DNA from: Escherichia phage vB_EcoM_VR20 | Reading direction: 5' to 3' (one strand) | Sequence record: NC_028894.1 | Length of the DNA: 64,000 nt | Shown: in pieces, positions 16,392-41,854 of the stretch | Numbering within the stretch: the first letter of the stretch is position 1 | Layout of the letters: every line of letters begins with the position of its first letter | Translations under genes and position numbers: made by a program | Notes under the pieces: generated by a model | The model's input: only the letters and a program-made list of their open reading frames with translations | What the model was told of the DNA's origin: nothing | The model's database searches: none

Positions 16392-17402
16392 TTAACGATA
16401 ATAGGAATTGTGGTTGTCAAGATATACCTCTTCAACAAACTTGTCCCAGAACTTCATGTCTACCTTATCAGGCATACCATTCTTAGCGGCCCAGATGGCA
16501 TTAGTTTCGACTTCATCAATGATAGCTTCAAGTTCGGCCTGTACATCTTTAAAAGCATGAAGCCCTTGTTTGATTTCAAGGATAAATGGTGCTGTACGTA
16601 AAGGATATTGGAGGTCACCAGTTTGATAGATTTCCTTCAACTGGTATCCAGCACGATAAGCATGGCTCAGAGCTTTCCAGTCAATACCTTCATTGGCTTC
16701 TGCCTTACGAGCACGTTCACCATATTCGGCATCGAGTTTATTCAGAGATTGCTTGAGCTCGATTAAAGACAAGGTGGTTTGGTACTTACGTCCAAGAACA
16801 GTATAGAACGTTTGAGGGCCTGTTTTCTCGTGGTTATGGAATACCCATTCACAGAACTCATTTTCAGGGAGTCGATGTTTGATATCTTCTACCTTAGTGC
16901 GACGTTGCTTAGTCGAACCATCTTCTTGATAGTCGACCCACTGTTCAGGAATCTGGTTAACGATTGCCAGTACACCACGTAGAGCGGCCAATCGAGAACC
17001 TTTAACACCATACTTAGAAGCTTGCTTGCGGACATAACCCAAATAGGCTTTCATGTTAGTTGTATAGAACCGTGAACGGTTATCCTGGATAAACTTCCAT
17101 ACATCTGGTAAATCGGATTTGACAACCAGGTCAGCCGGGGTGTGAATCATATCCAGGGCAACGGTTTCGCCTTCGGCCGCCAGTTTAAAGAAATATTTCA
17201 GACTATAAAGTTCATGGTCAACATCATCTTTTGTATTTTTGGTAGCCGTGTTATTCGTGTTCAGGTTGGTATGGTTCATCGCCGTCCCAAGTAGAATATC
17301 ACGAGGATGTGGAACAAAGATTTCTTTAAAATCGACATCAGATTCTGGGGTACTTGTTCCATAAAGGTGGCTACCGAAGTAGCCTTTCATAACTGTTCTC
17401 AT
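16392..17402 (-). CDS. Predicted nucleotidyltransferase-fold protein (Pol-beta superfamily-like)
   Basis: 336 aa; N-terminal GSHLYGTSTPESDVDFK fits G[SG]x9-13[DE]h[DE]h signature; start at internal Met with GAGGA SD; ATGA overlap with upstream membrane ORF. Confidence 0.5.
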   Translation of the reverse strand: MRTVMKGYFGSHLYGTSTPESDVDFKEIFVPHPRDILLGTAMNHTNLNTNNTATKNTKDDVDHELYSLKYFFKLAAEGETVALDMIHTPADLVVKSDLPDVWKFIQDNRSRFYTTNMKAYLGYVRKQASKYGVKGSRLAALRGVLAIVNQIPEQWVDYQEDGSTKQRRTKVEDIKHRLPENEFCEWVFHNHEKTGPQTFYTVLGRKYQTTLSLIELKQSLNKLDAEYGERARKAEANEGIDWKALSHAYRAGYQLKEIYQTGDLQYPLRTAPFILEIKQGLHAFKDVQAELEAIIDEVETNAIWAAKNGMPDKVDMKFWDKFVEEVYLDNHNSYYR

Positions 17403-17851
17403 TTTTTGTCCTCGAAGTGGATTACAGGACACATCTTAGATTTACGAGCTTTAATGTATTGAATAACGATGTTTTCTTTAGTTTCCTTTCCTTCACGTTT
17501 GGCTAGAATACGTTGCCATTCCTTTTCTTCTTTATGTAAATCATACCAGGACCATAAATTCATTAGACCATACATTAAACCAAATGCTACCGCCAGAATA
17601 AGAGCCAGTGTAGCTAGTCCTAAAATAAACCCTAAGCCTAAACCGACCGGGGTACTTAATACAAAGAAATGCTCTAATACACCGGCCCCCGCGACAGTTA
17701 ATCCAAAAACCATACTACCGATAAAAATGGCACAAACAAAACAAGCCCAAACCATTTTCCAAAAGTAAGCACACAATGAGTGTGGACGAGAATGGCGGTC
17801 ATAAAAACGGTCATGGAAGCGAGCGTGCCAAGAGTTTGCATTGATAATCAT
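17399..17851 (-). CDS. Integral membrane protein
   Basis: 150 aa; hydrophobic segments FVCAIFIGSMVFGLTVAGAGVL and LGLGFILGLATLALILAVAFGLMYGL. Confidence 0.5.
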   Translation of the reverse strand: MIINANSWHARFHDRFYDRHSRPHSLCAYFWKMVWACFVCAIFIGSMVFGLTVAGAGVLEHFFVLSTPVGLGLGFILGLATLALILAVAFGLMYGLMNLWSWYDLHKEEKEWQRILAKREGKETKENIVIQYIKARKSKMCPVIHFEDKK

Positions 17852-20467: not shown

Positions 20468-20738
20468 ATCTTTTAAACTTGAAACAATATATTGCAAATA
20501 AATCAGAAAAATGTCTATCAACCCATATTCTTTGCACTGGACTAGTAACAGTCAGCATATAATGTGCTTTTTGTAAATTTATTCCATTTTTATTCGGGCA
20601 TTCTTTATTAACAGAATGGTACGTGCTTGCTACTATTTCAATTTCCCTTTCATATCTCTCGCTATCTGTTTGTGTGGGGATAAATGCAATTCCAGCAATA
20701 ACAAAAATAGAGATATACGTCCAAATCTTATATATCAT
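20463..20738 (-). CDS. Small secreted/membrane protein
   Basis: 91 aa; N-terminal hydrophobic IWTYISIFVIAGIAFIP. Confidence 0.4.
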   Translation of the reverse strand: MIYKIWTYISIFVIAGIAFIPTQTDSERYEREIEIVASTYHSVNKECPNKNGINLQKAHYMLTVTSPVQRIWVDRHFSDLFAIYCFKFKRL

Positions 20739-20745
20739 AAGGACC

Positions 20746-21318
20746 TCAGCTTGTCAATTCGAGCCAATGTTTCCTGCATAAAGATACGTACGATTCATTC
20801 CCACCGACTAACACTTGCTCGCCGTCCTTTACAGCAGCACCGTCGATTACTCGAGCGGTCATGGTTGCTTTCCGGCCGCAATGGCAGACGCCCTTTAATT
20901 CAACCAGTTTATCCGAAATAGCCAGAAGTCTGGCTGAACCGGGAAATAACTGACCCCGAAAATCTGTTCTTAGCCCGTAACACATAACGGGGATATTATA
21001 ATTATCAACCACTCGTGCTAACTGGTCAATTTGCTCTGGTAACAAAAATTGAGCTTCATCAACCAGGACACAATGGATATCCTTTTGAGACTCGGCCCAT
21101 TTATAGAATTCAAACAGGTTCATGTCGGCCGTTACCAGGTTTGCTTCCTGGCTAATACCAATACGTGATTTAATTTCAGATTCCGAGTCCCGATTATCAA
21201 TAACAGGTTTTAGCAAAAGCACACTCATTCCACGCTCTTTATAGGAATAAGCTGCAGTCAGCAATGAAGCTGTTTTGCCTGCATTCATTGCTGCGTAATG
21301 ATAAATTAAACTCGCCAT
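20746..21318 (-). CDS. tk: Thymidine kinase
   Basis: 190 aa; P-loop AMNAGKTASLL, VDEAQF, C-terminal zinc cysteines CHCG...C typical of TK. Confidence 0.9.
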   Translation of the reverse strand: MASLIYHYAAMNAGKTASLLTAAYSYKERGMSVLLLKPVIDNRDSESEIKSRIGISQEANLVTADMNLFEFYKWAESQKDIHCVLVDEAQFLLPEQIDQLARVVDNYNIPVMCYGLRTDFRGQLFPGSARLLAISDKLVELKGVCHCGRKATMTARVIDGAAVKDGEQVLVGGNESYVSLCRKHWLELTS

Positions 21319-21327
21319 ATCACCTTC

Positions 21328-21513
21328 TTAAAGAGTATTCACATAAGCAATTAATTCGTTTTCTTTCTCATCAAACCGATTAGCAAATTCTTCCTGATGT
21401 TCGGCATCTATCGGGCCGTGTTCATCATAAAAAGCGTTCGCTTCCGTATGCTCGTCCAAAAGCTCATGGATAAGCTCAAACAATCTACTTTTCTGACTAA
21501 TACTTAAACTCAT
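21328..21513 (-). CDS. Hypothetical acidic protein
   Basis: 61 aa ORF. Confidence 0.3.
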   Translation of the reverse strand: MSLSISQKSRLFELIHELLDEHTEANAFYDEHGPIDAEHQEEFANRFDEKENELIAYVNTL

Positions 21514-21716
21514 TTCGGTTCACCTTGTTTTACAAAGTCTGGATACGGTTGAAACCCGGAATAGAAACCAGCGCCTGCATGATTCACACACCCTTTATTA
21601 GAACAATAGCACCAATAATCAAAATCACATATCATTTCATCGTTGCATAAAGCAAAAACAACTGGCCATTTACACTTTTCACAGTGAGCATTTTTAAGAA
21701 TACTAGTTTGACTCAT
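21510..21716 (-). CDS. Small Cys-rich protein
   Basis: 68 aa with 7 Cys (CEKC...CNDEMICDFDYWCYCSNKGC). Confidence 0.4.
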   Translation of the reverse strand: MSQTSILKNAHCEKCKWPVVFALCNDEMICDFDYWCYCSNKGCVNHAGAGFYSGFQPYPDFVKQGEPK

Positions 21717-22167
21717 AATCCACCACTATCAAATCAATGTCAGGAGTAAACATATCAATTAACCGGGAAACCTTATCCCAATCACCACCTGCAATACCAC
21801 AGCCAATCCTGGGAATATAAATCACGGGCTTGAACAAAAGTGATTCTGCTTGTCGATTTAATTCTATCATGCAATTTAATAAAGCACCATAATCCAGATT
21901 TGGACCCGGTTCATACTGGGTATAAAGGTTATAGCACATACCAAATCCAGTTGGCTTATGTTTAAAAACGATAGACATATCACCGAGTTTTTCTCGGGAA
22001 CCGTATTCAGTTGATGTTTTATCCATTTCTAAAATTTTTGGGTAAGCCTTTGCCAGTTGGCCAGCAACGCCTGACCCCATTGTATGGAAGCAGTTACAGC
22101 CATGAGCTATGATGTTTCCTTCGAGAAAGAGGGCGACGATATCGCCCTTAATATAGTTAACAATCAT
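21703..22167 (-). CDS. Macro-domain protein (ADP-ribose binding/processing)
   Basis: 154 aa; GDIVALFLEGNIIAHGCNCFHTMGSGVAGQLAKAYP and later GCGIAGGDW match macro-domain glycine-rich motifs. Confidence 0.6.
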   Translation of the reverse strand: MIVNYIKGDIVALFLEGNIIAHGCNCFHTMGSGVAGQLAKAYPKILEMDKTSTEYGSREKLGDMSIVFKHKPTGFGMCYNLYTQYEPGPNLDYGALLNCMIELNRQAESLLFKPVIYIPRIGCGIAGGDWDKVSRLIDMFTPDIDLIVVDYESN

Positions 22168-22523
22168 TTAGAGTTCAATCCTCTGTTATAGGAATCGACT
22201 AACCTGTCAACCATACTGGTACAGGCCGCTTTATATTTGGCACTCGACAGAATACAATCCATTTCAAATAGTTTCTTTTCATATTTGTTAGATAAAGTAC
22301 TCTTTTTCATAAGAGTGTGTTCAACATCATTTTGACCGTCTTTATAGGCAGCAGTGAGTTTGGCACTGAACTGGATTATACAATCCACATTGCTTGATGC
22401 GCAATAATCTTTGGCCGTCCTCGTTGCATATTCTACGATGCTGTTGTTGTCGACGCTCTGTACTGAAGCTATTCCTCCCGTGCTGAATACTAACCCCATG
22501 GCTAAAGTTATGACTCTTACCAT
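22164..22523 (-). CDS. Small secreted protein (vs-position)
   Basis: 119 aa; signal-peptide-like MVRVITLAMGLVFSTGGIASVQS; identity with T4 vs not verified. Confidence 0.4.
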   Translation of the reverse strand: MVRVITLAMGLVFSTGGIASVQSVDNNSIVEYATRTAKDYCASSNVDCIIQFSAKLTAAYKDGQNDVEHTLMKKSTLSNKYEKKLFEMDCILSSAKYKAACTSMVDRLVDSYNRGLNSK

Positions 22524-23066
22524 TTAATCCACCATTTTTAATAGGCCTCGTGATTTTAAGTAGTTAGCTTTTTCTAGGACCTGCGAAGCATATGTATTTC
22601 CAGCTTTCACATTCCACCCTGCATTATATGATGATAGTGTTTTTCTTATGTCCCCCTTGTGAATGTTCAACCAATATGAAAGCTCAATATAGGCCCAGCG
22701 CGCGCTGTTTTCTCTCTTGCTTATCATCTTGATTATTTCTTTATCTGTCATTGTCCACCCAACCTGTTTTACACGCTCGCGTACGGTTGGAAGATAATTT
22801 TGGAATATACCATATGCATGATGCTTATCTTTATTTAATCCTGTATTAACACCAGCAGATGATTCCTGCCAGGTTAAACCAGCCATGATATATCCCAAAC
22901 CATTATGTTGGTGCGGATTTTCTTTGTACTTACCATTTTTCTGGAACTGTTCTCCAAACGCATAAGCATATTGAAGATTTTCCATCTGTTCATTACTGAA
23001 AGTAGGCTCTACGCTATGGGCAGACATACTAACTGTCAATAGTAAGGTGGCGATTACTTTTTTCAT
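22524..23066 (-). CDS. Secreted protein, possible lytic transglycosylase-like (vs.1-position)
   Basis: 180 aa; signal peptide MKKVIATLLLTVSMSAHS; E-S containing TWQESS segment; functional call weak. Confidence 0.4.
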   Translation of the reverse strand: MKKVIATLLLTVSMSAHSVEPTFSNEQMENLQYAYAFGEQFQKNGKYKENPHQHNGLGYIMAGLTWQESSAGVNTGLNKDKHHAYGIFQNYLPTVRERVKQVGWTMTDKEIIKMISKRENSARWAYIELSYWLNIHKGDIRKTLSSYNAGWNVKAGNTYASQVLEKANYLKSRGLLKMVD

Positions 23067-23076
23067 GAATTCCTCA

Positions 23077-23535
23077 CTAGATATAAATCACTTTTGTGCT
23101 AATTTTTCCTTCCAGACGATTAGAGTTAACAAACGCCATACGACAACACATGGTTGGAGACTTCCCAGGTAATGCCGGGTTAACTGTCATTCCTAACCAT
23201 AGGTTCTTGTCTGTGATTTCCAGACGAAGTGGACGGTAGTTCACATTCGGGTCAATTTGTGCTTCAACTTCTGGAAGCGGTTCCATTTTTAAGAATTCAA
23301 CAATTTCTTTTACATGTGGTGTGATTTTTCCAAACAAGTCAAAAACATATTGTTCGTCAATTTCACGTTGGATTGCACGGTCCAACAGGTGTGGACTGTA
23401 CTTAATGAAGAATGCTTCAAGGCCTGCTTCTTTACAAGCCTTGTTGATAGCATTATTAATTTTGAGGAACTCCGTTTCAAAAATACGACGAAGTTTATTG
23501 CGGCGAATGTAAACACTTGAATCAATAGTAGTCAT
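23077..23535 (-). CDS. regB: Endoribonuclease RegB
   Basis: 152 aa from internal Met; VYIRRNKLRR...YSPHLLDRAIQREIDEQYVFDLF...LEITDKNLWLG...CRMAFVNSNRL matches T4 RegB. Confidence 0.8.
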   Translation of the reverse strand: MTTIDSSVYIRRNKLRRIFETEFLKINNAINKACKEAGLEAFFIKYSPHLLDRAIQREIDEQYVFDLFGKITPHVKEIVEFLKMEPLPEVEAQIDPNVNYRPLRLEITDKNLWLGMTVNPALPGKSPTMCCRMAFVNSNRLEGKISTKVIYI

Positions 23536-23554
23536 GATTATCTCCTTTTGTTTG

Positions 23555-24171
<617 letters not shown>

Positions 24172-24175
<4 letters not shown>

Positions 24176-24405
24176 TTCACTTCCTCGCCAGTTGCGATAT
24201 CATATTCTACCAAACGAAGGCCATCAGTCCAACCTTGCACGGAGATATAGGTAGTCGGGTAAACAATTTCTTTACCATTCCATTGGCCACCGTCCCAGCA
24301 TTCCATAAAGCCTTGTTCGCCCTGTTCGTGGAACCAGTCAACAAACATCTTCAGAGCTTCATCAGAGCCTTCAATTGTCAATTTAGACATATTTTTTCCA
24401 GTCAC
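24172..24405 (-). CDS. Hypothetical protein
   Basis: 77 aa ORF. Confidence 0.35.
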
Positions 24406-24682
24406 TAATTAATCGCACATCCTGGTCATAGGTCAGGAGGCTACGAGTGATAATACCCTTACAAGGTCCAGAAATAAATTCCAGAGTAAAGTAAGGAACC
24501 AACTTCATCAAGCGAATACTCGGAGCAGTGCAACGAAATCTGGACCCAACAAAAGGTCCAGACAAAAACACATACTCAAAGAAATTTGCTTTATTAAAGA
24601 TTTCAAAATTCTTTACGAAATCTTCAGACCTAACTTTTGGAATAAAATAGATTTGGTCAAAAAGCTCTTCATGGGTCATCAT
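24383..24682 (-). CDS. Hypothetical protein
   Basis: 99 aa ORF. Confidence 0.35.
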   Translation of the reverse strand: MMTHEELFDQIYFIPKVRSEDFVKNFEIFNKANFFEYVFLSGPFVGSRFRCTAPSIRLMKLVPYFTLEFISGPCKGIITRSLLTYDQDVRLISDWKKYV

Positions 24683-26362: not shown

Positions 26363-26779
26363 TTAAGCGTACACAGCTTTCCCATAGTATTTGTACCAGG
26401 TAGGCTTTTGAGAAATTTTCTCATTCAATCTGGCTTGACTGATTTCAATTGACCAGATTGATGGTTGATAATCATTCTTCCATTCATCAGGAATATCATT
26501 TAAATCTTGGGTAGAAATATCTTTTATGTTAAACCCTCGCTTTAAACATTCCGCAATAAGTTCTTGATGACGGTTTTTAAGGAACAAAAGTTTATCATAA
26601 AAGAAGGTGACATGACCAGTCCCTAAAAGAAAAGATGATGGGATTTTAAAGTCAGAAACCTTTTTACCATTTTGTACATGTTTGCGAACCGCACCAAACA
26701 CGCGAGGAAGCTCACGATATTCAGCCATAAGATGTTGGTCAGCAAGTTCAGATACCAGGGTTAAATTAATGCGAGTCAT
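26363..26779 (-). CDS. denV: Endonuclease V (pyrimidine-dimer DNA glycosylase) DenV
   Basis: 138 aa; [35 protein letters not shown]... nearly identical to T4 DenV. Confidence 0.9.
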
Positions 26780-26838: not shown

Positions 26839-27120
26839 TTATTTTGTGGAAGCAGCCGAGATATATTTTTCAAGACGCTGTTTCATCAGCGAGCCGTTCT
26901 TAGCGATTTCTTCCGGTTTATCGCACATACGCAATAGAGCTTCAAGCTTAGTGATATCAGATGTCCGCTCAAATTTGCGAGTATCTACCTTACTAGCAAG
27001 TTCGGAAATACGCGCTAACAGACTTTCGGCTTCTACCAAAGCTGTGCCCAGCTTAGTTGCAAATGTGTCAGTAGCTTCATTAAGAGTGGTCACGGTCAAA
27101 AATTCATTATAGGTTTTCAT
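26839..27120 (-). CDS. Internal-protein-like ORF with capsid targeting sequence
   Basis: 93 aa; N-terminus [15 protein letters not shown]. Confidence 0.5.
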
Positions 27121-27601
27121 ATGCTTTCCAAGTTCCTGTTTTAAATGTTGAGATTACACGTTTCGCTCGATTAGGTGTTTGTTTGTACCATTTGGATTGA
27201 GCCAGGTTAACAGCAGCTTCGTCCCAACGTTTCTGTTGAAGCAACCGAAGGGAGTTAGTAAACCCAGCAACGCCGGCTTCACCCATTTGGAAGACCATAT
27301 TAATCAGGGCACAGCGACGAACTTCGTCAAGACTATCATACACTGGTTTTAATTTAGCATTACGCATAACACTCGCACGTGCTTTTTCCACTGAACGGTT
27401 AAACAAGGTTTCAGCTTCAACCTGGGTTATGCGACCATTGCAGACGCGACCCATGAGCTTGTCGAGCTCGGCACGAGCAACATCTTTAGACGGGTTCTTA
27501 GTTATCAGTTGCCCGATACCGATGGTCCAAAAGCCTTCGGTATCTTTATACAAATCCAACTTACAACCTTCATCTATGCGTAACATTTCGAATATATTCA
27601 T
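27107..27601 (-). CDS. e: Endolysin (T4 lysozyme, gene e)
   Basis: 164 aa; [12 protein letters not shown]...[11 protein letters not shown]...[33 protein letters not shown] matches T4 lysozyme incl. E11/D20/T26. Confidence 0.9.
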
Positions 27602-27640
27602 AATACCCCCTTATATAGGGGTATTTATTATCCGAAAATT
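27602..27640 (-). promoter_or_regulatory. SD-sequestering hairpin with late-promoter-like AATAAATA upstream of e
   Basis: Minus-strand AATAAATACCCCTATATAAGGGGGTATT-ATG; inverted repeat pairs the GGGGG SD with CCCC. Confidence 0.45.
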
Positions 27641-28080
27641 TGGGTCAGTACCTTGTACATCGATTTGCCCATCACGTATTGCCATTGGCTCGGTTTAATC
27701 AGAGCAAAAGCATCGAACTCTGGGACTGTACTACCATCCGGGAAGGTATGATAGGCAGAGCATTTACTATGTCTGAATTGTTCATGCTCAACCGGAACCG
27801 TATACAAAAACAGGTGAAGGTTTTTGTTATCTGAATAACGGAACTCACCGAGGTCTTTTAAGAATGCTGGGTCGTATTGGGTAAATCCGGTTTCTTCTTC
27901 GGTTTCACGAATAGCGGCTTCAATCGGGGATTCACCAGCTTCAACATGACCCTTAGGGATGTCCCATTTGTGCGCAGACATACCTGGTTTACGAGAACCG
28001 GTCACACGACCCATGAATAACTCTTTATCTTCAGTCATGAAAATAATGCCAGCAGATAATTCCTTCACTTTCTTACTCAT
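27628..28080 (-). CDS. nudE: Nudix hydrolase NudE (e.1)
   Basis: 150 aa from MSKKVKELSAGIIFMTED; Nudix box GHVEAGESPIEAAIRETEEETG. Confidence 0.8.
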   Translation of the reverse strand: MSKKVKELSAGIIFMTEDKELFMGRVTGSRKPGMSAHKWDIPKGHVEAGESPIEAAIRETEEETGFTQYDPAFLKDLGEFRYSDNKNLHLFLYTVPVEHEQFRHSKCSAYHTFPDGSTVPEFDAFALIKPSQWQYVMGKSMYKVLTQIFG

Positions 28081-28309
28081 CATCACGTTCCCAAGATTTT
28101 TTAAAGATTTCGGCCACAATAATTTCAACGCATGTTTCTGTTGACGGGCTTTCACTATCAGATATTTGGACCATATAATCGGAAATTGGGCGGAACATAT
28201 CTAAGTCAGTTTCTAAATCATCTTTGATTTTCTCTTCTGATGTACCTGTATCATAGGAATACAGATAAGAATCACATGACTCGGATTTAATATAAATTGC
28301 AATACTCAT
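28073..28309 (-). CDS. Hypothetical acidic protein
   Basis: 78 aa ORF. Confidence 0.35.
   Translation of the reverse strand: MSIAIYIKSESCDSYLYSYDTGTSEEKIKDDLETDLDMFRPISDYMVQISDSESPSTETCVEIIVAEIFKKSWERDDE

Positions 28310-41169: not shown

Positions 41170-41854
<685 letters not shown>

What the first reader, a model, noticed from the sequence alone, without database searches (positions are those of the whole stretch)
21703..22167. Macro-domain protein adjacent to tk
The ORF carries macro-domain glycine-rich motifs (NIIAHGCNCFHTMGSGVAGQ, GCGIAGGDW). Macro domains bind or hydrolyse ADP-ribose adducts, so this is a candidate reverser of ADP-ribosylation-based defence or NAD-derived signals. The window also encodes a Nudix hydrolase (nudE) and the 2H-phosphoesterase 57B, which together would form a set of nucleotide-signal-degrading enzymes.
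Basis: partly seen in the sequence, partly recalled or inferred. Interest (0 to 1): 0.5.

Follow-up and report, generated by a model that had tools for sequence, protein, structure and literature searches.

The report
T4 Tk.4-type phage macrodomain (AdfM)
This gene is the counterpart of phage T4's tk.4, a small ADP-ribose-handling (macro domain) enzyme that T4 needs to escape the bacterial DarTG2 defence that ADP-ribosylates phage DNA, so it is real and functional but already known.

Summary

It is the positional orthologue of T4 tk.4 (59% identity, same regB-vs.1-vs-macro-small ORFs-tk order) in a Gaprivervirus-like T-even phage. A 2025 preprint shows that deleting T4 tk.4 sensitises T4 to DarTG2, and renames the gene adfM.

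The active site is not DarG-like. The catalytic lysine of DarG and TARG1 is an invariant glutamine (Q84) in this family. The same glutamine occurs in Streptomyces SCO6735, which cleaves thymidine-linked ADP-ribose from DNA using Gln85 and Asn27, and in the phage ADPR-1''-phosphate phosphatase Adpp (38% identity).

The most likely function is removal of DarT2-installed ADP-ribose from phage DNA. ADPR-1''-phosphatase activity is the main rival.

NudE and 57B/Acb1 are in the window, but they are separate genes 5.5 and 19 kb away, not a module with this one.

Interest is low.

The parts
21703..22167 (-). Macro-domain gene, orthologue of T4 tk.4 (adfM); 154 aa plus stop codon
22060..22104 (-). Loop 1 of the ADP-ribose pocket, residues H22-G36 (HGCNCFHTMGSGVAG). 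It includes invariant H22, G23, N25, C26, G33 and A35. The N25 codon is 22093..22095.
   Evidence: Invariant columns in the 102-sequence family alignment. N25 aligns with DarG N22 and SCO6735 N27. The codon was read directly from the sequence.
21916..21918 (-). Codon of Q84 (CAG), at the position of the catalytic Lys80 of DarG, Lys84 of TARG1 and the essential Gln85 of SCO6735
   Evidence: MAFFT alignments and BLASTP all place Q84 opposite DarG K80. Q84 is invariant in 102 family members. The SCO6735 Q85A mutant is inactive (PMC9411070).
21778..21813 (-). Loop 2 (diphosphate-binding), residues P119-W130 (PRIGCGIAGGDW). P119, G122, G124 and W130 are invariant.
   Evidence: A126 occupies the position of TARG1 D125 and of Poa1p F152.
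22164..22523 (-). vs homologue (valyl-tRNA synthetase modifier), upstream neighbour; its stop codon overlaps the macro start codon (ATGA)
   Evidence: 44% identity to T4 vs by tblastn. Synteny with T4 and Sf23 annotation.
21510..21716 (-). 68-aa phage zinc-binding protein, downstream neighbour overlapping the macro 3' end by 14 nt; part of the same exchanged cassette
   Evidence: PF23895 E=1.3e-28. 89.7% identity to Sf23, with no hit in the T4 locus.
20746..21318 (-).
   Evidence: PF00265 E=4.5e-58. 72% identity to T4 Tk.

Best explanation
The ORF encodes a free-standing, single-domain macro enzyme. It is the orthologue of T4 Tk.4, recently renamed AdfM (anti-DarT factor, macrodomain). It is expressed from the tightly packed minus-strand regB-vs.1-vs-tk.4-tk gene block. 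Its proposed job is to bind ADP-ribose that the host toxin DarT2 has attached to thymidines in single-stranded phage DNA and to hydrolyse the C1''-N3 bond. That would release ADP-ribose and restore replicable DNA. The proposed chemistry is the Gln-type mechanism described for SCO6735. In that mechanism Q84, held in place by N25, positions the distal ribose and a backbone-bound water does the chemistry; there is no lysine nucleophile as in DarG or TARG1. What is shown here: the fold, the orthology and synteny, and conservation of N25 and Q84. What is shown elsewhere: the T4 tk.4 knock-out is DarTG2-sensitive, and SCO6735 cleaves T-ADPr in a Gln85/Asn27-dependent manner. What is inferred: that this 59%-identical allele has the same activity, and that the T4 phenotype is due to hydrolysis.
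Against: No biochemistry exists for T4 Tk.4 or for this allele; hydrolysis is inferred in the preprint as well. The protein is acidic (pI 5.1, net charge -5; family median pI 5.9). SCO6735 (9.7), Taq DarG (9.2) and TARG1 (8.6) are basic. It also lacks SCO6735's extended lysine-bearing mobile loop, which is implicated in DNA binding (gap after Q84). The closest biochemically characterised homologue by sequence is Adpp (38% identity). Adpp acts on a small molecule, not on DNA. At 59% identity to T4 Tk.4, a shift in specificity cannot be excluded.
Confidence: 0.68

Rival explanations
1. It is primarily an ADP-ribose-1''-phosphate phosphatase, like yeast Poa1p and phage Adpp. It would convert the ADPR-1''P produced by RES-type NAD+ phosphorylases (the aRES defence) into ADP-ribose. 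Any anti-DarT2 effect would be secondary.
For: It is 38% identical (E=6e-26) to Vibrio phage Gary Adpp, which was shown by LC-MS to dephosphorylate ADPR-1''P and to be required for NARP1-AP to overcome aRES. Adpp shares the H-x-C-N-C-F...Y-x-Q-Y...G-C-G-x-A-G-G-D-W signature. Homologues sit inside Adps-macro-Namat operons in phages KIT04, D22 and Gary. Poa1p is a top structural hit. The acidic surface suits a small-molecule substrate. The long-standing annotations 'A1pp phosphatase motif' and 'phosphatase' point the same way.
Against: The phosphatase only helps when NARP1 (Adps plus Namat) can use the ADPR it produces. Neither gene flanks this ORF, and none was found among the larger ORFs of the window. 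The direct orthologue in T4 has a DarTG2 phenotype, and DarT2 does not produce ADPR-1''P.
Confidence: 0.15
2. It erases other ADP-ribose marks. Candidates are the marks laid down by the phage's own ADP-ribosyltransferases (Alt, ModA, ModB) on host proteins or RNA, and RNA ADP-ribosylation by defence toxins such as CmdT.
For: ALC1-like macrodomains such as TARG1 and SCO6735 also act on protein and nucleic-acid-phosphate ADP-ribose (PMC8883491; PMC9411070). T-even phages encode several ARTs (established knowledge). CmdTAC targets T-even phages by mRNA ADP-ribosylation (PMC11618068, abstract).
Against: No genetic or biochemical data link Tk.4 to these substrates. Alt and Mod make arginine-linked ADP-ribose, which this macro class is not known to cleave (general knowledge of ARH1 versus macrodomain specificity, summarised in PMC8883491). 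HIDEN-SEQ found tk.4 dispensable on plain K-12.
Confidence: 0.1
3. It neutralises DarT2 mainly by binding and blocking the toxin (interaction-inhibition) rather than by hydrolysis.
For: Catalytically dead SCO6735, DarG and TARG1 macrodomains all inhibit DarT in vitro, and SCO6735 does so most strongly (PMC9411070).
Against: The pocket residues H22, N25, Q84 and both glycine loops are invariant across 102 homologues, which argues for selection on catalysis. There is no DarT-binding C-terminal domain; the protein is only 154 aa.
Confidence: 0.05

Closest known systems
Phage T4 Tk.4 / AdfM (anti-DarT factor, macrodomain; bioRxiv 10.1101/2025.11.20.689424)
   Same: It has the same length, 59% identity over the whole protein, the same position between vs and tk, and the same H-G-C-N-C-F-H-T-M-G-S-G-V-A-G-Q and L-Y-T-Q motifs.
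   Different: It is a diverged allele. The window type (90-95% identity in 296 phage records) and the T4 type both circulate among Tequatrovirus and Gaprivervirus. The downstream small genes differ: the zinc-binding ORF had no tblastn hit in the T4 locus fetched. The anti-DarTG2 phenotype has been tested only for the T4 allele.
Streptomyces coelicolor SCO6735 (PDB 5E3B) and Bacteroides BT1257 (2AFC/2FG1): Gln-type ALC1-like macrodomains
   Different: Identity is only 27-29%. The phage protein has a shorter loop after the Gln, without Lys89/Lys94 equivalents. It has Gly23 where SCO6735 has Val25 (a backbone role). It is acidic rather than basic.
Phage Adpp of the NARP1-AP pathway (Vibrio phage Gary KNV71_gp137) and yeast Poa1p (PDB 6LFQ)
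   Same: Adpp is 38% identical with the same active-site signature, including the Gln. Both the window protein and Adpp homologues retrieve roughly the same 2550-2780 phage records by tblastn. Poa1p H23 and S30 correspond to H22 and T29.
   Different: Adpp sits between Adps and Namat, whereas this gene sits between vs and tk with no NARP1 genes nearby. Adpp has a 7-residue insertion after the Gln. The demonstrated substrate is a small molecule, not DNA.
DarG antitoxin macrodomain (T. aquaticus 5M31/5M3E, M. tuberculosis 5M3I) and chimallivirus AdfM (PhiKZ gp104)
   Different: Identity is 18-25%. The catalytic Lys80 (K78 in PhiKZ AdfM, PMC13309987) is Gln here. There is no DarT-binding domain and no adjacent darT. 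The score is far below the NCBIfam DarG cut-off (29.5 versus 250 bits). The name AdfM now covers two different macro lineages.

Membership tests
Macro domain superfamily (Pfam PF01661) | Profile match above the curated gathering score | tested here: met
   33.4 bits against a cut-off of 22, covering profile positions 2-117 of 118.
Macro domain superfamily (Pfam PF01661) | Three-layer alpha/beta/alpha macro fold with two glycine-rich ADP-ribose-binding loops | tested here: met
ALC1-like macro class (TARG1 / DarG / SCO6735 / Poa1p) | Closest structural and sequence neighbours belong to this class rather than to the MacroD, macroH2A or PARG classes | tested here: met
T4 Tk.4 / AdfM orthologous group | Full-length similarity to T4 Tk.4 | tested here: met
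   59% identity, E=4e-70, 151 of 154 residues aligned without gaps.
T4 Tk.4 / AdfM orthologous group | Conserved genomic position between vs and tk in the T-even early region | tested here: met
   The order regB-vs.1-vs-macro-small ORFs-tk is seen in the window and in the annotated T4 and Sf23 loci.
T4 Tk.4 / AdfM orthologous group | Required for phage growth on DarTG2-expressing hosts | not testable with these tools
   Shown only for T4 tk.4. It needs a plaque assay with this allele.
DarG antitoxin (NCBIfam NF048014 / PADLOC DarG) | Equivalog-level profile score | tested here: not met
   29.5 bits against a cut-off of 250. PADLOC DarG gives 28.4 bits, covering the macro part only.
DarG antitoxin (NCBIfam NF048014 / PADLOC DarG) | Catalytic lysine (Taq/Mtb K80) in the PTK motif | tested here: not met
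   Q84 aligns with K80. Gln is invariant in 102 family members.
DarG antitoxin (NCBIfam NF048014 / PADLOC DarG) | C-terminal DarT-binding domain and an adjacent darT gene | tested here: not met
   The protein is 154 aa and consists of the macro domain only. Its neighbours are vs and a zinc-binding protein.
SCO6735-type (Gln-type) T-ADPr DNA hydrolases | Gln at the Lys80/84 position, held by the conserved Asn (SCO6735 Q85/N27) | tested here: met
   Q84 and N25 align with Q85 and N27. Both are invariant in the family. Their functional role is described in PMC9411070.
SCO6735-type (Gln-type) T-ADPr DNA hydrolases | Extended, Lys-bearing mobile loop and an electropositive DNA groove | tested here: not met
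   There is a 5-6 residue gap relative to SCO6735 and BT1257 after Q84. pI is 5.1 against 9.7.
SCO6735-type (Gln-type) T-ADPr DNA hydrolases | Hydrolysis of thymidine-linked ADP-ribose on ssDNA | not testable with these tools
   Requires an enzyme assay.
Adpp (NARP1-associated ADPR-1''P phosphatase) | Homology to Vibrio phage Gary Adpp / Poa1p with a shared active-site signature | tested here: met
   38% identity, E=6e-26. The H, N and Q residues are shared.
Adpp (NARP1-associated ADPR-1''P phosphatase) | Location within or next to an Adps-Namat (NARP1) operon | tested here: not met
   The neighbours are vs, vs.1, regB, a zinc-binding protein, DUF7438 and tk. No PRPP-synthetase-like or NAPRTase-like hit was found among the window ORFs scanned. 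The rest of the genome lies outside the window.

The most novel reading that the evidence does not exclude
The Gln-type phage macrodomains (T-even Tk.4/AdfM plus NARP1-linked Adpp; about 2,500-2,800 phage genomes) may be one dual-specificity 'ADP-ribose C1''-eraser' family. If so, the stand-alone T-even enzyme would both strip DarT2's thymidine-ADP-ribose from DNA and dephosphorylate ADPR-1''P made by RES-type defences. The two deeply diverged alleles (59% identity) exchanged among Tequatrovirus and Gaprivervirus would then reflect adaptation to different toxin variants or substrates, not drift.
Probability: 0.15. Interest if true: 0.5.

Novelty: already known. Interest (0 to 1): 0.2.

Why it matters
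On its own the gene adds little. It has been annotated for years as Tk.4, 'A1pp phosphatase' or macro domain, and its counter-defence role against DarTG2 was reported for T4 in 2025.

The useful residue of this check is mechanistic. The T-even AdfM family does not carry DarG's catalytic lysine. It carries the Gln/Asn pair of SCO6735, and it is a closer relative of the ADPR-1''P phosphatase Adpp than of DarG.

That matters for anyone designing catalytic mutants (Q84 and N25, not a lysine). It also matters for interpreting the 'AdfM' name, which now covers two different lineages. Finally, it raises the question of whether one enzyme counters more than one NAD-based defence.

Tried and rejected
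1. Single-sequence AlphaFold2 gave an unusable model (pLDDT 40.6). I replaced it with the alignment-based model.

2. I considered and rejected membership of the DarG antitoxin family. The score is far below the cut-off, the catalytic Lys is absent, and there is no DarT-binding domain or darT neighbour.

3. I considered and rejected the 'loss of catalytic residues means an inactive reader domain' reading. The Lys-to-Gln change is invariant in the family and matches the active SCO6735 type.

4. I rejected the idea of a NudE/57B/macro 'set' acting as a functional module. The genes are 5.5 and 19 kb apart, with unrelated genes between them.

5. The sigma-70 promoter and terminator scan of 20500..24500 gave no enrichment over shuffles (12 against 11.7 expected), so it says nothing about the transcription unit.

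6. I looked for NARP1 genes (Adps, Namat) among the larger window ORFs and found none.

7. I considered recent horizontal transfer as the explanation for the 92% identity to the Sf23-type Tequatrovirus allele. Third codon positions are only 54.5% identical, so the exchange is old and the protein is under strong constraint.

8. The Poa1p sequence used was partly recalled from memory. Only its first ~82 and last ~33 residues were verified against the PDB, so I did not rely on its central region.

Full report
OBSERVATION. The ORF is present exactly as described: 21703..22167 on the minus strand, ATG start, 154 aa (DNA). Both quoted motifs are there, NIIAHGCNCFHTMGSGVAGQ at residues 18-37 and GCGIAGGDW at residues 122-130. 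It is not directly next to tk (20746..21318). A 68-aa phage zinc-binding protein (21510..21716, PF23895) and a 61-aa DUF7438 protein (21328..21513) lie between them. The upstream neighbour is vs (22164..22523), whose stop codon overlaps the macro ATG.

IS IT A MACRO DOMAIN? Yes. The evidence is as follows.
- Pfam PF01661 scores 33.4 bits, above the 22-bit gathering score, and covers almost the whole model.
- PHROG 335 ('phosphatase') matches at E=1.6e-69.
- tblastn finds homologues in 2780 phage genomes.
- A single-sequence AlphaFold2 run failed (pLDDT 40.6). With a 102-sequence alignment the model reaches pLDDT 95.5 and pTM 0.90.
- Foldseek against the PDB returns TARG1, Poa1p, BT1257 and DarG first.

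The protein therefore belongs to the ALC1-like (TARG1/DarG/SCO6735/Poa1p) class.

WHAT GENE IS IT? The window comes from a Gaprivervirus-like T-even phage. The protein is 99.4% identical to one encoded by Escherichia virus TH15, and the DNA is 98% identical to TH40. The order regB (23077..23592), vs.1 (22524..23066), vs (22164..22523), macro, small ORFs, tk is the T4 order regB-vs.1-vs-tk.4-tk.3/2/1-tk. The protein is 59% identical to T4 Tk.4 over its full length without gaps. It is the positional orthologue of tk.4. GenBank records already annotate that gene as 'contains A1pp phosphatase motif', 'phosphatase' or 'macro domain protein'.

WHAT IS KNOWN ABOUT THE ORTHOLOGUE?
- Johannesman et al. 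(PMC11825919) showed that T4 lacking adfA and adfN remains resistant to DarTG2. They predicted a further factor.
- The HIDEN-SEQ preprint (bioRxiv 10.1101/2025.11.20.689424) found tk.4 as the single significant hit on a DarTG2 host. It confirmed that a clean tk.4 knock-out sensitises T4 to DarTG2 and renamed the gene adfM. The proposed hydrolysis of ADP-ribose from DNA is inferred there from structural similarity to DarG; it was not assayed.
- Separately, a chimallivirus protein also called AdfM (PhiKZ gp104) was shown biochemically to remove T-ADPr. It carries DarG-like N23 and K78 (PMC13309987).

ACTIVE SITE. This is the one point where the analysis goes beyond the annotation.
- Four independent alignments (MAFFT; BLASTP) place Q84 of the window protein opposite the catalytic Lys80 of DarG and Lys84 of TARG1.
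- TARG1 Asp125 corresponds to A126.
- Q84 is invariant in all 102 family members aligned, together with H22, G23, N25, C26, G33, A35, D49, N80, Y82, P119, G122, G124 and W130. T4 Tk.4 has the same Gln.

The family is therefore not DarG-type. This is not loss of function. SCO6735 of Streptomyces coelicolor (PDB 5E3B) and BT1257 have the same His-x-Cys-Asn...Gln arrangement (SCO6735 sequence recovered). Hlousek-Kasun et al. (PMC9411070) showed the following for SCO6735:
- It cleaves thymidine-linked ADP-ribose from DNA and rescues E. coli from DarT.
- Q85A is dead and N27S is nearly dead.
- The proposed mechanism has Gln85, held by Asn27, positioning the distal ribose while a backbone-bound water acts.

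The activity was re-confirmed with synthetic substrates (PMC12879935). N25 and Q84 of the window protein align with N27 and Q85. The family profile also matches BT1257 (72 bits), TARG1 (64) and SCO6735 (60) better than it matches DarG (48 and 43.5). The residues are conserved, but they are of the Gln type.

A SECOND EXPERIMENTAL ANCHOR. The window protein is 38% identical (E=6e-26) to Adpp of Vibrio phage Gary. Osterman et al. (bioRxiv 10.64898/2026.01.28.702374) showed that Adpp dephosphorylates ADPR-1''P, which lets the NARP1 pathway rebuild NAD+ despite the aRES defence. Adpp-type homologues sit between Adps and Namat in KIT04, D22 and Gary. They share the H/N/Q signature. The window gene has no such neighbours, and no Adps- or Namat-like ORF was found among the larger window ORFs. 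This keeps ADPR-1''P phosphatase as a real rival or an additional activity.

Two further observations lean slightly that way. The protein is acidic (pI 5.1; family median 5.9), unlike SCO6735, Taq DarG and TARG1. It also lacks the Lys-bearing loop extension of SCO6735. Against the rival, DarT2 does not make ADPR-1''P, and the T4 phenotype is specific to DarTG2.

SELECTION AND MOSAICISM. The window allele is 91.6% identical in protein to the allele of Tequatrovirus sf23-type phages; 296 records fall in the 90-95% band. The flanking tk, vs, vs.1 and regB genes are only 42-72% identical to both T4 and Sf23. The macro gene plus the two small downstream ORFs thus behave as an exchanged cassette. 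The exchange is old. Nucleotide identity is 81.6%, third codon positions are 54.5% identical, and positions 1+2 are 95% identical. That indicates strong purifying selection.

THE 'SET' OF ENZYMES. NudE (27628..28155, NUDIX) and 57B/Acb1 (41170..41625) are present. So is an Acb2/Vs.4-type sponge at 23897..24175. They are separate genes with separate known or presumed targets and do not form a module with the macro gene.

VERDICT. The feature is real, functional and correctly interpreted, and it is already known. It is the Tk.4/AdfM orthologue of a T-even phage. The best explanation, at confidence about 0.68, is Gln-type hydrolytic removal of DarT2-installed ADP-ribose from phage DNA. The main rival is ADPR-1''P phosphatase activity (about 0.15). 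Interest is 0.2. The most novel reading not excluded is a dual-specificity C1''-eraser family, with probability about 0.15.

Noticed in passing
window 23897..24175 (-): A 92-aa ORF matches the Acb2/Tad1 hairpin domain (PF24729, E=1.3e-15). It is 60-64% identical to T4/Sf23 Vs.4, so it is an Acb2-type cyclic-nucleotide sponge lying 1.7 kb from the macro gene. The tk-vs region therefore carries at least two counter-defence genes.
   Followed up: partly
window 21328..22167 (-) versus L002 (Shigella phage Sf23): The macro gene, the 68-aa zinc-binding ORF and the 61-aa DUF7438 ORF are 80-92% identical in protein to Tequatrovirus sf23. The flanking tk, vs, vs.1 and regB are only 42-72% identical to both T4 and Sf23. 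This looks like a mosaic cassette shared across genera. The exchange is old: third codon positions of the macro gene are 54.5% identical.
   Followed up: partly
literature (PMC13309987 versus bioRxiv 10.1101/2025.11.20.689424): The name AdfM is in use for two different macro lineages. PhiKZ gp104 is Lys-type (N23/K78) and DarG-like. T4 Tk.4 is Gln-type and SCO6735/Adpp-like. Catalytic-mutant designs are not transferable between them.
   Followed up: yes
window 21706..22167 (-) and alignment A2: The Tk.4 family is acidic (window pI 5.1; median 5.9 over 102 members, 85% below pI 7). The DNA-acting relatives SCO6735 (9.7), Taq DarG (9.2) and TARG1 (8.6) are basic. This is unexplained if the substrate is ssDNA.
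   Followed up: partly
window 21328..21513 (-): The 61-aa DUF7438 ORF next to tk has a sub-threshold hit to the 'putative addiction module component' family Unstab_antitox (E=0.009, 16.4 bits against a cut-off of 23.3). This may be chance.
   Followed up: no
window 16392..17432 (-): A 346-aa ORF carries an RlaP domain (RNA repair pathway DNA polymerase beta family nucleotidyltransferase), PF10127, E=2.8e-11.
   Followed up: no
window 41170..41625 (-) and 27628..28155 (-): 57B is a clear Acb1 anti-CBASS phosphodiesterase (PF23474, E=1.5e-59). The NUDIX ORF next to lysozyme e (27107..27601) is the NudE homologue. denV (Pyr_excise) lies at 26363..26779.
   Followed up: partly
L003 (Vibrio phage KIT04), L004 (Acinetobacter phage D22), L005 (Vibrio phage Gary): Homologues at 32-38% identity sit inside Adps-macro-Namat (NARP1-AP) operons. 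In D22 the order is Adps-x-Namat-macro rather than Adps-macro-Namat.
   Followed up: partly
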